Shown here: piece after piece, positions 12,001-57,000 of the stretch
Layout of the letters: each line of letters begins with the position of its first letter
Numbering within the stretch: the stretch's first letter is position 1
Source of the DNA: Octopus sinensis
Taxonomy: Eukaryota
Direction of reading: 5' to 3'
DNA length: 64,000 bases
NCBI RefSeq assembly: GCF_006345805.1
Contig: NC_043014.1
Coordinates: forward strand, 4,774,001-4,838,000
Position numbers: made by a program

Positions 12001-15000
12001 TGTATTTACATTCGTTCTTACATATTGTCATATATAAAAACCAACGTGAATTACAGTCAAACATTACGAAATTCACCGATCTACATTGGCACTCGCACGT
12101 TTTATTTTCAGTTGGAAAGAAAAGATTCAAAAAAACTCGCCTCACTTCCGTTCCTGATGGAGAGAAATAGATAAATGTGTGTAAATATGTACGTATTCCT
12201 ATGTGTGCGTGTGTGTGTATGTGTCTGTTTCTGTGCGTGTGCGCAAGTGTACATCTAGATATAATATTTAACACTAATATTAATACGGCTAAACGTTGCA
12301 GCGACAGGGCATGGCCATGCTACAACCCCACCATTAGATTTTTTTCATTACGCATTTATTTCCCTCTCCAGGATTATGTCTGGTGAAAGAGCGATCGGAC
12401 AGGAGTACAATTCCACCCTTCTTTGTGTTTCCTTGGGATGTGTGTTTATATATGTATATATATATATATATATATATATATATATATATATATATATATA
12501 TATATATATATATATATATATATATATAGATAGATAGAAAGATAGATAGATAGATAGATAGATAGATAGATAGATAGATAGATAGAGATAGATAGATAGA
12601 TAAGTAGATAAATAGATTGATAGATAGATATGTATGTACATACATACGTAACTATATATGTGTGCATGTATGTATGATATGTATATATATATATATATAT
12701 ATATATATAGATGTATGTGTGTGTTTGTGTGTATAGCACACGTAGTGTGTATGTATCTATGTTTTATATATGTGTCTGATATTGTCGCACCACTATCGAT
12801 TCTCAACTGATGTCGGTGTATTTACGTCCCCGTTACATAGCGGTTCGGCTAGAGATAACGATAGAATGAGCAATGGGCTTACAAAGAATAATTCCTGAAG
12901 TCACTTTGTTCTACTAAACGCTGTGCTCTAGCATGGCCGCAGTCAAATGACTGAAACGGGTAAAAGAATATATCTATATATAAACACACACACACACACA
13001 CACACACACACACATACATATATATATATATAGATAAATGGAGAGAGAGGGAGAGAGAGATAGACAGAGAAATACAGTGATAGATACACACACGCATATA
13101 TTTGCTTGTATATATATATCTATATATGTTCACACACAAATATATTCTTATATATGTATATTTAGATATACATATATATGTATATTATATATACAAATAT
13201 ATGTATATGTATGTATATGTAGGCTTAAGTGTGTGCGCCTGTGTGTTCGTGTGTGATTACGTGTGTGATCTTATGTGTGCGTGTGTGCTCCATAGGAACA
13301 TATGTACGTGATTCATGCATACATCTTTACATCCATCCATCGGTACGTACATACATCCACATATTAATACATACATACGTAAATGTATACATACATACAT
13401 GCATATATAAATACATAAAGACATACATATATTAACACAAAATCCATGACTTACCGTTTTCGATTTCTCCTCCATTTTTCCTATTCTTGAATCTTGATGA
13501 AGAATCACGATCGTCAGAACGAGAAGAACCCCAAAAGCTATGAGAGAAGAAATGGAATAACGCTGCGAAATATTCCTGGACAGTTGTGCGAAATCCATTC
13601 TGGTGACAGTTGTCGGTCGTACGTGATACTTCGTGTGGCTTCAACAAAAGATCGAGATGCGAGGTTTAAGCTGAAGACCTGTAACTGAATTCCACGTATT
13701 TATTGAGCGCACAACAACCCAGCTCTGGCATAGATCTTATCGTAAATTTATGAACCAATGCGATTGGTGGAACTGTAAAAGCGGGTGTGAACTTCTCTGA
13801 CAGGTTTAATTATTGGAAAGAGATGGTTTGATATTGTCACACAATAATTAGCAATATATTTTGATGAATGAGAGTCTCGTGTAAAGTGAAATGATTCCTG
13901 TTTCTGGATATATTATGATATATTTATTTACTAATGTTGTTATTTAATTTTATTTGTTTATTCTTGGGAAACTGTTTTAATATTCAGTGTGGGAAGTATT
14001 TCGTTCAACCAACAAATACACAGACACACACGCATACACACACACTGACACGCAAACACACACGGACGGACACACACACAGACACTGACACACACACACT
14101 GACACGCACACACAAGCACACACTGACACGAACACCAACACACACACACCTACACACACTGACACACAGACACACACACGCACACACACTAACACACACA
14201 CACATACTGACATACACACACACCAACACACACCCACACACACCAACACACACTGACACACACACTGACACACACACACAGATACATTGTCTTACACACA
14301 CACACACACTCACGCACAGACTTACACATTGACACACACACACTGACACACACACACACACTGACACACACACACACGCTGACACACACACGCACATACA
14401 CTGACACACACACATACACTTACACACACACATACACTGACACATACACTGACACACACACACACACTCCCACACGCACACATACACTGACACACACACA
14501 CACACACACACACCGAAACACACACACACACACACACTCACACACTGTTTTAATATTCAGCGTGGGAAGTATTTCGTTCAACCCACACAGTAATCGCAGC
14601 ACTTAATCTAATGAAGTCCGCTGTTCGGATTGGATTCTTCACAACAAGCGTTAATCGGATTAGAAAAGTTTTATGTGAATATCAAAATCAAAACCTACCA
14701 ATTCCCACCCACCCGTACATACATATATACATACATACATACATACATACATACACACATACATACACACATACATACATATATACATACATACATACAT
14801 ACATGCAGGCATGCATACATACACACTCACGTATATACATACACATATACATACATACATACATACATATATACATACATTCATACATGTATGCATATAT
14901 TTATACATACATATTTACATACATACATATATACATACATACATGCACACATACATACAGGTATACATACATACATGCATACATACACACTCACGTATAT

Positions 15001-54000: not shown

Positions 54001-57000
54001 GTGTGTGTGTGTGTGCATGTGTGTGTATGCGTAGCGTTTGGGTGTGTGGCGAATATCTGTGCGTATGCGTGTATACATGTATGTATAATTGTGTGCGTGT
54101 ATGTATAATTGTGTGCCGTGTGTATGGGACGTATGTGTGGGTTCATTTGTGTGTGTGTGTTTGTATGTGCATGCGTCTCGTATGTGAGTGTAGTTGTGTG
54201 TGCGTGTACGTGTGAGTTTGTATGTGTGTAAGCGTATATGGGTGTATATACGTGTATCCGTGGGGTTGTGAGTTTTGTGTGCGTGTGTGTGTTTGTGTCT
54301 GTGTCTATATGTGTATACTTATGTGTATGTGTGTGTGCGTGTATACATATAACTCCGTGATCACCGTTACAGACCAAGCTAACAGTTGTTGCTACATATC
54401 GCTGGTCACAATGCGCTTCGCATTGTTTTAGCCTTCAAATGACGCCAGCCCGCTAGCTAAGCGAGCAGGCCAACAGAAGAAAGGGAGAAAGTTGTAGCGA
54501 AAGAGTGCTCACAACCTAGTCTGGGAATCGAAATCGCGATCCTAAAACCGTGAGTCCGCGACCCGAAGCACTGGGCCACTGCGCCTCCAAACAGACATAT
54601 ATATATATAAATATATATATATATATATATATATATATATATATATATATATATATATATATATATATATATATATATATATATATACATATCAATATAT
54701 AGGTATACACGTACACATAAGCATATACACCATAAATATCACAAATATACGTATCTACTTATACGCATACACACACACAAACGCACACATATATGTGAGT
54801 GGACATACACTGTATAGTGTGATTGTTCGTGTACAATAGAGCACGTGTGTCTGTGTGCGTGCGTATGTGTGTGTGTTTGTGTTTTTTTGTGCGTGTGTTT
54901 CTCCGTGTGTCTGTGTGTATGTATTTACATTCGTTCTTACATATTGTCATATATAAAAACCAACGTGAATTACAGTCAAACATTACAAAATTCACCGATC
55001 TACATTGGCACTCGCACGTTTTATTTTAAGTTGGAAAGAAAAGATTCAAAAAAACTCGCCTCACTTCCGTTCCTGATGGAGAGAAATAGATAAATGTGTG
55101 TAAATATGTACGTATTCCTATGTGTGCGTGTGTGTGTGTTTGTATGTGTCTGTTTCTGTGCGTGTGTGTAAGTGTACATCTAGATATAATACTTAACACT
55201 AATATTAATAGGGCTAAACGTTGCAGCGACAGGGCATGGCCATGCTGGAACCCCACCATTAGATTTTTTTGATTACGCACTTATTTCCCTCTCCAGGATT
55301 ATGTCTGGTGAAAGAGCGATCGGACTGGAGTACAATTCCACCCTTCTTTGTGTTTCCTTGGGATGTGTGTATATGTATGTATACATATATACATATATAC
55401 ACATATATATATATATATATATATATATATATATATATATTTGTATATATATAAAAGAGAGAGAGAGAGAGAGAGAGAGAGAGAGATAGATAGATAGATA
55501 GATAGATAGATAGATAGATAGATAGATAGATAGATATGTAGATAAATAGATTGATAGATAGATATGTATGTATATACATACGTAACTATATATGTGTATG
55601 TATATATGATATGTATATATATATATATATATATATAGATGTATGTATGTGTGTGTGTGTATAGCACACATAGTTTGTATGTATCTATGTTTTATGTATG
55701 TGTCTGTTATTGTCGCACCACTATCGATTCTAAACTGATATCGGTGTGTTTACGTCTCCGTTACATAGCGGTTAGGCTAGAGATACCGATAGAATGAGCA
55801 ATAGGCTTACAAAGAATAATTCCTGAAGTCGATTTGTCCTACTAAACGCAGTGCTCTAGCATGGCCGCAGTCAAATGACTGAAACGGTTAACAGAGTATA
55901 TTTATATACAAACAAACATACACACACACAAACACACACACACACACACACACACACACACACACACACACACACACACATATATATATATATAGATAAA
56001 TAGAGAGAGAGAGAGATAGACAGAGAGATACAGTGATAGATACACACACGCATATGTTTGTTTGTATATATATATCTATATATGTTCAGGCACTAATATA
56101 TTCATATATATGCATATTTATATATACATATATATGTATATTATATATACGAATATATGTATATGTATATATATGTATGTTTAGGTGTGTGCGCCTGTGT
56201 GTTCGTGTGTGATTACGTGTGTGATCTTATGTGTGGGTGTGTGCTCCATAGGGACATATGTACGTGATTCATGCATACATCCTTACATCCATCCATCCAT
56301 CCGTACGTACATACATCCACATATTAATACATACATACGTAAATGCATACATACATACATGCATATATAAATACATAAAGACATACATATATTAACACAA
56401 AATCCATGACTTACCGTTTTCGATTTCTCTTCCATGTTTCCTATTCTTGAATCTTGATGAAGAATCACGATCGTTAGAACGAGAAGAACCCCAAAAGCTA
56501 TGAGAGAAGAAATGGAATAACGCTGCGAAATATTCCTGGACAGTTGTGCGAAATCCATTCTGGTGACAGTTGTCGGTCGTAAGTGATACTTCGTGTGGCT
56601 TCAACAAAAGATCGAGATGCGAGGTTTAAGCTGAAGACCTGTAACTGAATTCCACGTATTTATTGAGCGCACAACAACCAAGCTCTGGCATAGATCTTAT
56701 CGTAAATTTATGAACCAATGCGATTGGTGGAACTGTAAAAGTGGGCGTGAACTTGTCTGACAGGTTTAATTATTGGAAAGAGATGGTTTGATATTGTCAC
56801 ACAATAATTATCAAAATATTTTGATGAATGAGAGACACGTGTAAAGTGAAATGATTCCTCTGTCTGGATATATTATGATATATTTATTTACTAATGTTGT
56901 TATTTAATTTTATTTGTTACTATTAGTATCGCCCGGCGTTGCTCGAGTTTGTAAGGGAAATAACAATATAAGCATTTTTAAAGAGTTATAGCCAAAAAAT

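What the first reader, a model, noticed from the sequence alone, without database searches (positions are those of the whole stretch)
12077..55356. Every complete gene copy has an internal lesion, yet the terminal exons are all open
Seen, under my exon model: A has lost the exon 2 donor (12355). B has TAA at the start of exon 2 and has deleted exon 3. C has the same TAA. D has a stop in exon 3 and a destroyed donor at 49679-49680. Only the partial gene 0 shows intact exons 1-2-3. All five 500-nt domain exons and all five exon 1 copies remain open. Inference, three options: a young pseudogene graveyard (birth-and-death); a reservoir of variant domain cassettes used by gene conversion or read-through splicing between tandem units (for example D exons 1-2 joined to the last exons of C, B or A, which is in frame); or my exon 2/3 model is incomplete.
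Basis: partly seen in the sequence, partly recalled or inferred. Interest (0 to 1): 0.7.

Follow-up and report, generated by a model that had tools for sequence, protein, structure and literature searches.

The report
Intact octopus gene array, mis-modelled exons
The window holds an ordinary tandem array of octopus "short-chain collagen C4-like" genes; most of the reported damage lies in an intron, so three of the four complete genes look intact and only one has a real splice-site defect.

Summary
Those in A, B and C, and one of the two in D, fall in two hypothetical exons: 76 nt at 12431-12356 and 77 nt at 12153-12077 in copy A. Both lie inside intron 1 of the gene that protein homology supports. 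Octopus and Argonauta proteins map to four minus-strand exons of 144, 52, 75 and 500 nt, giving 256 codons plus stop. It is present in all five units, and all five of its variable sites are synonymous. Under this model A, B and C have open exons and AG/GT splice sites. D has one real lesion: the exon 3 donor reads TT, not GT, at 49679-49678. Each unit has its own conserved 5' flank, ATG exon and AATAAA signals. The array is a two-gene, about 28-kb periodic duplication with mosaic identity. The encoded domain resembles collagen IV NC1 and spongin. This is a known family, and the headline claim is not supported.

The parts
13455..13598 (-). Gene A exon 1, coding part: ATG to ACG, then gtaagt. 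144 nt, ends in phase 0. Encodes the N-terminus with a hydrophobic run (ISSLIAFGVLLVLTIVIL).
   Evidence: tblastn of P0011, 48 of 48 residues identical; ATG and GT donor seen
8655..8706 (-). Gene A exon 2, 52 nt, phase 0 to 1 (NRFISKKSLDDKPDDTP plus A). Acceptor aaAG, donor GTAAGA.
   Evidence: all variable sites among the 5 copies are synonymous
5876..5950 (-). Gene A exon 3, 75 nt, phase 1 to 1 (K-SGLGSLYTRWGRTTCPPYSNLVYD-G). Acceptor AG, donor GTTAGT.
4033..4532 (-). Gene A exon 4, 500 nt with the TGA stop. Cysteine-rich domain like spongin and collagen IV NC1.
28450..28593 (-). Gene B exon 1
24453..24504 (-). Gene B exon 2
   Evidence: 5 of 7 further octopod queries hit it
21541..21615 (-). 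Gene B exon 3
19329..19828 (-). Gene B exon 4, with stop
   Evidence: 98% identical to P0011
41903..42046 (-). Gene C exon 1
37065..37116 (-). Gene C exon 2
34262..34336 (-). Gene C exon 3
31652..32151 (-). Gene C exon 4, with stop
56415..56558 (-). Gene D exon 1
52469..52520 (-). Gene D exon 2
49680..49754 (-). Gene D exon 3. The reading frame is open, but the last base is C, not G, and the donor at 49679-49678 is TT, not GT. Read-through meets TAG at once. This is the only lesion in a supported exon.
   Evidence: five copies side by side; the alignment stops one residue short
47488..47987 (-). Gene D exon 4, with stop. Open, and 98.4% identical to B.
62728..62779 (-). Partial gene E exon 2. 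Its exon 1 lies beyond the window end.
61401..61475 (-). Partial gene E exon 3
59233..59732 (-). Partial gene E exon 4, with stop
1962..2105 (-). Partial gene 0 exon 1. Its true exons 2-4 lie before the window start.
12356..12431 (-). Homologous pieces: 361-286, 27390-27315, 40869-40794 and 55356-55281.
   Evidence: no counterpart in 195 family proteins
12077..12153 (-). Homologous pieces: 76-1 (cut by the window edge), 40585-40509 and 55072-54996. Lost in B after 9 nt.
13599..13928 (-). Conserved 5' flank of gene A with CCAAT and AATAAATA motifs. Equivalent stretches: 2106-2435, 28594-28923, 42047-42376 and 56559-56888.
   Evidence: five copies printed; 98-99% identity in all A-D pairs in the window that covers it

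Best explanation
The region is a head-to-tail array of independent four-exon genes on the minus strand of an Octopus genome. They belong to the family annotated as 'short-chain collagen C4-like'. Each gene encodes about 256 residues. Exon 1 gives an N-terminal hydrophobic anchor. Exons 2 and 3 give a short linker and the start of the conserved domain (YTRWGR..C). A 500-nt last exon gives the rest of a ten-cysteine domain related to the NC1 domain of spongin and collagen IV. They fall in two stretches that look like exons only in copy 0. Genes A, B and C are intact by sequence. D has lost the exon 3 splice donor, so it is either a young pseudogene or can make only a form without exon 3, which is in frame but lacks 25 residues including a conserved Cys and Trp. 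The array grew by duplication of a two-gene block of about 28 kb and has since exchanged segments between paralogs. Shown: exon positions, phases, splice dinucleotides, open frames, conservation pattern, family membership by sequence. Inferred: membrane anchoring, independent transcription, the fate of D.
For: The O. vulgaris protein P0011 (256 aa) aligns in four blocks in every unit, with no stop in any exon copy. Seven further proteins from O. sinensis, O. bimaculoides and Argonauta map to the same blocks in unit B. All 7 hit exons 1, 3 and 4, and 5 of 7 hit the 17-residue exon 2. Splice sites: AG acceptors and GT donors flank all copies of exons 1-4 except the D exon 3 donor. Exon lengths of 144+52+75+500 nt give 771 nt, 256 codons plus stop, equal to P0011. 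Exon 2 shows 20 synonymous and 0 non-synonymous pairwise differences among five copies. The domain exon has dN/dS of 0.28-0.64. A direct exon 1 to exon 2 junction (EEKSxxNRF...) occurs in 19 of 32 octopod-type proteins examined. The other 13 did not match the junction pattern; the 9 of them whose sequences I viewed have other or shorter N-termini. The conserved 330-nt 5' flank and the AATAAA signals 52-131 nt after each stop are. Family: 788 of 796 candidates matched at E<=1e-3, named hits being 'short-chain collagen C4-like'. The AF2 model of P0011 has pLDDT 85.8, and its 30 Foldseek matches at E<=0.001 include only collagen IV NC1 entries among the rows shown.
Against: The database proteins are mostly automatic gene models, so their agreement is not fully independent of the same kind of inference. 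In gene 0 the two reader pieces are open, have AG/GT boundaries (the second donor is off the window) and together add 153 nt in frame, so an optional cassette in some copies is not excluded. Foldseek TM-scores to NC1 are low (0.19-0.25, rmsd 16-19 A). Neither Pfam nor a profile search of PDB sequences found collagen IV NC1. Intactness rests on exon-by-exon reading plus phase arithmetic.
Confidence: 0.88

Rival explanations
1. Pseudogene graveyard: all complete copies are dead, and the open first and last exons only reflect youth.
For: D has a destroyed exon 3 donor. Other family members in O. sinensis and O. vulgaris have odd N-termini or lack exon 3, for example P0001, P0004-P0009 and P0002, so gene death does occur in this family.
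Against: Under the homology-supported model A, B and C have no stop, no frameshift and no lost splice site. Exon 2 changes are all synonymous, and the domain exon shows dN/dS of 0.07-0.41 outside its variable patches.
Confidence: 0.03
2. The array is a reservoir of variant domain cassettes. One promoter-proximal unit (D) supplies exons 1-2, which are spliced to the last exons of downstream units, or donor cassettes are copied in by gene conversion.
For: Phases allow it: exon 2 ends in phase 1, and exons 3 and 4 start in phase 1. D cannot use its own exon 3 donor. Incompatible site patterns in the domain exon (6 contiguous AC|BDE sites at codons 103-107 against 8 ABD|CE sites) and switching nearest neighbours along the unit show exchange between paralogs. 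Three longer database models (P0121, P0122, P0124) string exon copies of duplicated units together at other loci.
Against: Every unit keeps its own highly conserved 5' flank, ATG exon and polyadenylation signals, which is not what promoter-less cassettes look like. No transcript evidence exists. The longer models are automatic predictions. Exchange between tandem paralogs is common and needs no special mechanism.
Confidence: 0.05
3. The reader's 76- and 77-nt pieces are an old optional two-exon cassette (153 nt, in frame) that is still usable in gene 0 and decaying in the other copies.
For: In gene 0 both pieces are open with AG and GT at the visible boundaries, and together they keep the frame.
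Against: No protein among the 195 fetched contains them. A search of 1.84 billion representatives with a 53-residue read-through of the second piece gave one hit (E 2.4e-5) to a repeat-like 149-aa ORF, matching mostly beyond the piece. The pieces vary at the same rate as the flanking intron, and 4 of 5 copies are disabled. The 76-nt piece was not searched against the large libraries.
Confidence: 0.04
4. The D donor change (GG to CT) is an assembly or consensus error, and D is intact too.
For: It is a two-base change in an otherwise conserved context. D's other exons are open.
Against: Nothing in the window suggests poor assembly here: there are no N bases and no nearby indels. Raw reads were not available.
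Confidence: 0.1

Closest known systems
Octopus 'short-chain collagen C4-like' genes (automatic annotations of O. sinensis, O. vulgaris and O. bimaculoides; e.g. P0011, 256 aa)
   Same: Same four coding blocks and the same length. Domain exons are 97-98% identical to the best hits: P0001 to copy C and P0011 to copy B. Many paralogs share one chromosome-scale contig per species, going by the 'longest_contig' column.
   Different: No database protein was seen to equal a window copy. P0011 differs from B at 2 residues in exon 1 and 3 in exon 4, so the window is another individual, species or paralog set.
Spongin short-chain collagens (sponges and other invertebrates; PMC5395295, passages read)
   Same: C-terminal NC1-like domain. 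Ten cysteines per protein (1 in exon 3, 9 in exon 4, read). The paper counts seven cysteines shared with collagen IV plus three specific to spongins. Non-cephalopod named relatives are 47-58% identical over the domain.
   Different: The octopus proteins have no Gly-X-Y collagenous stretch. A hydrophobic N-terminal segment and a short linker precede the domain. Relatives in Branchiostoma, cnidarians and others carry Pfam Collagen PF01391. I did not map the cysteines one by one onto the paper's alignment.
Collagen IV NC1 (C4) domain
   Same: Among the rows shown, every Foldseek match at E<=0.001 to the model of P0011 is an NC1 chain (E from 8e-5, probability 0.94-1.00).
   Different: TM-scores are only 0.19-0.25. 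There is no Pfam C4 hit and no PDB sequence-profile hit. The protein has no long triple helix.
Birth-and-death evolution of tandem gene families
   Same: Two-gene periodicity of about 28 kb, mosaic identity and one copy with a disabling splice change.
   Different: Most copies are alive. It is not a graveyard.

Membership tests
Short-chain collagen C4-like / spongin short-chain collagen family | C-terminal NC1-like domain homologous to named family members | tested here: met
   788 of 796 candidates matched at E<=1e-3. Named hits come from Octopus, Argonauta, bivalves, Owenia, Capitella and Branchiostoma. 75 of 196 longer candidates matched, including sponge and cnidarian entries.
Short-chain collagen C4-like / spongin short-chain collagen family | Ten conserved cysteines (seven shared with collagen IV, three spongin-specific, per PMC5395295) | tested here: inconclusive
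   The count is 10 per copy (A has an 11th). Seven cysteine columns are invariant and two nearly invariant in 98 sequences. One-to-one mapping to the paper's figure was not done.
Short-chain collagen C4-like / spongin short-chain collagen family | Short collagenous Gly-X-Y domain before the NC1 domain | tested here: not met
   Exons 1-3 contain no Gly-X-Y run. Pfam gives no Collagen hit for P0011, whereas relatives elsewhere carry PF01391.
Collagen IV NC1 (C4) fold | Structural similarity to solved NC1 domains | tested here: inconclusive
The Foldseek matches at E<=0.001 that were shown are all NC1 chains (probability up to 1.00), but TM is 0.19-0.25.
Pseudogene array | Disabling lesion in a coding exon or splice site of each copy | tested here: not met
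   A, B and C have none. D has a lost exon 3 donor.
Cassette reservoir with one expression site | Donor copies lack their own promoter and first exon | tested here: not met
   All five first exons have an ATG and a 330-nt 5' flank conserved at 98-99%. Promoter activity itself is not testable here.
Trans-unit (read-through) splicing locus | Transcripts with inter-unit junctions | not testable with these tools
   No transcript data. Only phase compatibility can be shown.

The most novel reading that the evidence does not exclude
The octopus array is a diversifying repertoire. Variable loop patches on a membrane-anchored NC1-like domain are shuffled among tandem paralogs by short-tract gene conversion. 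Units with a dead internal donor, such as D, may contribute through exon skipping or read-through splicing to neighbours. Together this would give a combinatorial set of surface or matrix recognition proteins specific to octopods.
Probability: 0.06. Interest if true: 0.55.

Novelty: already known. Interest (0 to 1): 0.12.

Why it matters
The main value is a correction. A striking pattern, where every copy is broken yet the end exons stay open, disappears once the short true exons are placed by homology. This shows how a missed 52-nt exon can produce an apparent pseudogene array. What remains is an annotated, tandemly expanded octopod family of collagen-less NC1-like proteins. In three literature searches I found no functional study of this family in octopods. 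The only octopus mention was one peptide of a family member in an ink proteome table (PMC10142993, passage read; its supplements were not opened). The family may deserve study, but nothing here marks it as unusual.

Tried and rejected
- Pfam on the five domain exons, on P0011 and on ten other ORFs gave no family for the domain.
- A PDB sequence-profile search found only a chance galectin match at E 0.48.
- The first structure job used 18 sequences and was unusable (pLDDT 35). The second, with 98 sequences, worked.
- Rfam found nothing in the window.
- dN/dS is about 1.0-1.4 in four variable patches. I do not count this as positive selection, because I picked the patches for being variable and their dS is raised too.
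I checked it only against the 195 fetched proteins.
- A scan of bacterial and archaeal genomes was a side issue; see Noticed in passing.
- The paper by Aouacheria et al. 2006 is not held. What I say of it comes from its citation in PMC5395295.
Orthologous loci and expression therefore stayed unchecked.
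Full report
**What the window is.** The 64-kb window has no N bases, is about 38% G+C and is rich in microsatellites. It holds five copies of a unit of 11-16 kb. Five open frames of 181-188 codons lie on the minus strand and are 84-88% identical to one another. A search with one of them returned 788 proteins at E<=1e-3 out of 796 candidates. The best were from Octopus sinensis (97%), O. vulgaris (93%), O. bimaculoides and Argonauta, mostly named 'short-chain collagen C4-like'. 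By my count 35 of the 120 rows listed are octopod entries. The window is therefore octopus DNA. Nothing in it looked human.

**The gene model that homology supports.** I ran tblastn with the 256-residue O. vulgaris protein P0011, and with P0003. Both gave the same four collinear blocks in every unit on the minus strand, with no stop in any block. Reading the flanks fixes the exons.
- Exon 1 runs from ATG to ACG followed by gtaagt. It is 144 nt and ends in phase 0.
- Exon 2 is 52 nt (NRFISKKSLDDKPDDTP plus one base), phase 0 to 1, with an AG acceptor and a GTAAGA donor.
- Exon 3 is 75 nt, phase 1 to 1, with an AG acceptor and a GTTAGT donor.
- Exon 4 is 500 nt including the stop and starts in phase 1 after an AG.
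- The sum is 771 nt, 256 codons plus stop, the length of P0011.

Seven more proteins from O. sinensis, O. bimaculoides and Argonauta hit the same blocks in unit B. All seven hit exons 1, 3 and 4. Five of seven hit the short exon 2; the two Argonauta queries did not at E<=1. I searched exon by exon. Intactness below rests on each exon's frame, its splice dinucleotides and phase arithmetic.

**The units.**
- Gene A runs from 13598 to 4033.
- Gene B runs from 28593 to 19329.
- Gene C runs from 42046 to 31652.
- Gene D runs from 56558 to 47488.
- A partial gene at the right edge (E) has exons 2-4 at 62779-59233.

'Exon 2' is 76 nt (12431-12356 in A, 55356-55281 in D), phase 0 to 1. 'Exon 3' is 77 nt (12153-12077 in A), phase 1 to 0. 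Both lie about 1.0-1.4 kb downstream of exon 1, next to a (TA)n/(CA)n tract, inside true intron 1. The five-copy alignment confirms each stated change.
- A has AT for GT at 12355.
- B and C have TAA for GAA at 27390 and 40869.
- B diverges into a CA-rich tract 9 nt into the second piece.
- D has GAA to TAA in frame in the second piece.
- Copy 0 has none of these, though the window cuts it one base short of the end of the second piece.

**Why these are not gene lesions.**
1. None of the 195 family proteins fetched shares even a 6-mer with translations of the two pieces, and blastp-short gave only chance 4-10-residue matches.
2. I examined 32 octopod-type proteins: the best 28 plus four. Nineteen show exon 1 joined directly to exon 2 (EEKSxxNRF...). 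The other 13 did not match the junction pattern. I viewed nine of these, and they have different or shorter N-termini. The remaining four are covered only by the 6-mer test.
3. The pieces vary at 5 of 76 and 2 of 76 columns, against 14 of 202 for the stretch between them. By my reading, the five changes in the first piece are one stop, two replacements and two silent changes.
4. The true exon 2 has five variable sites among five copies, all synonymous: 20 synonymous and 0 non-synonymous pairwise differences, with about 79% of its sites non-synonymous.
5. A phmmer search of 1.84 billion representatives with a 53-residue read-through of the second piece found one protein (E 2.4e-5). It is a 149-residue ORF built of repeats, and the match lies mostly beyond the piece.

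**State of the genes.** A, B and C have open exons and canonical splice dinucleotides throughout. The last base of exon 3 and the donor G are changed (GGT to CTT at 49680-49678). No GT is left at the junction, and read-through meets TAG immediately. The nearest other GTs would leave phase 0 or phase 2, which does not fit the phase-1 last exon (my reading). Skipping exon 3 keeps the frame but removes 25 residues, including the conserved YTRWGR..C segment (alignment). An O. vulgaris model, P0002 (231 aa), has exactly that exon 2 to exon 4 join. D differs from B by only 8 bases in the last exon, 4 silent and 4 replacement, too few to show relaxed constraint. Whether D is a young pseudogene, an exon-skipping variant or an assembly error cannot be settled here.

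**Independent genes or cassettes.** The 330 nt upstream of each of the five ATGs are nearly identical and carry a CCAAT palindrome and an AATAAATA motif. The alignment window that covers this flank and exon 1 is 98-99% identical in all A-D pairs, more than the introns at 88-98%. AATAAA signals follow each stop within 52-131 nt. This is the layout of separately transcribed genes; promoter activity itself is inferred.

**How the array evolved.** Spacings alternate, and the longest self-matches are 4991-16015 with 33378-44378 and 15926-22905 with 44079-51044, at about 95% identity and an offset of about 28.3 kb. The array therefore has a two-gene period. Nearest neighbours switch along the unit. 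A and C are 96-99% identical from the 5' flank to most of intron 2. B and D are 97-98% identical from intron 3 through exon 4 and beyond. Within the last exon, 35 informative sites include incompatible splits: 14 ACE|BD, 8 ABD|CE, and a block of 6 AC|BDE at codons 103-107. This points to exchange between paralogs. Overall dN/dS of the last exon is 0.28-0.64. Outside four variable patches it is 0.07-0.41. The patches fall mainly in loops of the model (DSSP string, my mapping). I chose them after the fact, so their ratio near 1 proves nothing.

**What the protein is.** Pfam finds no family, and a PDB profile search finds nothing real. An AlphaFold2 model of P0011 built on 98 relatives is confident (pLDDT 85.8). 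It shows a long N-terminal helix over the hydrophobic run and a beta-rich domain. Thirty Foldseek matches in the PDB reach E<=0.001; among the rows shown, every one is a collagen IV NC1 chain (E from 8e-5, probability up to 1.00). TM-scores are only 0.19-0.25. Passages of PMC5395295 describe spongins as a short collagenous domain plus an NC1 domain homologous to collagen IV. They have seven shared and three spongin-specific cysteines and are widespread in invertebrates. The octopus proteins have ten cysteines but no Gly-X-Y stretch, while relatives in amphioxus, cnidarians and sponges carry Pfam Collagen. They are family members by domain, not collagens in the strict sense. Membrane anchoring or secretion is inferred from the sequence only.

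**Literature.** Three searches found no study of this octopus array. One ink-proteome paper lists a peptide from a family member (PMC10142993, one passage read; supplements not opened).

**Verdict.** The nucleotide observations are right, and the headline is wrong. It comes from two false exons and a missed 52-nt exon. What remains is a known kind of tandem family with one defective copy.

Noticed in passing
L002 (contig CBDBCZ010000016.1, labelled Nitrospirales MAG); L001-L020 in general: A scan of bacterial and archaeal species genomes found 20 loci encoding this domain in MAGs labelled Nitrospirales, Dehalococcoidia, Stappiaceae ('chromosome: 34'), Parabeggiatoa, Methanosarcinales and others. 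In L002 the hit is a Gly-X-Y collagen plus NC1-like ORF in 43% G+C DNA. Among 10 ORFs of at least 80 aa in 6.5 kb, it is the only one longer than 120 aa. That looks like animal host DNA binned as bacterial, not a bacterial gene.
   Followed up: partly
window 51724-52071 (+): ORF with an Exo_endo_phos endonuclease match (E 3.2e-5, just under the Pfam cut-off) in intron 2 of D. This is probably a retrotransposon fragment. D is only 53-55% alignable to the other units in that alignment window.
   Followed up: partly
window 8035-8448, 23712-24203, 36445-36858 (+): Conserved plus-strand ORFs of 137-163 codons beside true exon 2 in units A, B and C. No Pfam match. Possibly a relic of a mobile element.
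   Followed up: partly
window 15708-16062 and 44071-44378: A 92-bp minisatellite, 3.4-3.9 copies at 90-96% match, in the two long spacers (B to A and D to C). Long (AC)n, (TACA)n and (CATA)n tracts at 14018-15350, 29014-29969 and 43150-43713 explain the G/C-skew dips.
   Followed up: no
window 4447-4449 (-), codon 28 of the last exon of A: Copy A has Cys where the other four copies have Tyr (ANCTT against ANYTT). That gives A an odd, eleventh cysteine.
   Followed up: no
Database proteins P0121, P0122, P0124 (O. sinensis and O. vulgaris): Longer models (300-310 aa) at other loci contain a second exon 2-like segment. In P0122 and P0124 there is also an exon 3 copy read in another frame. In P0121 there are two partial domain halves. 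These are either real partial duplications with cassette exons or prediction artefacts.
   Followed up: partly
window 59233-59732 (-), codons 103-107 of the last exon of E: Copy E carries the B/D-type patch (SGHYG) inside an otherwise A/C-like exon. This is a short mosaic tract.
   Followed up: partly
window 18579-18911 (-): An ORF in the B-to-A spacer contains '...NYLTTCQV...'. It resembles the odd N-terminus of the O. sinensis model P0001, '...NLTTCQV...'. This may be an alternative upstream exon or a prediction artefact in that species.
   Followed up: no
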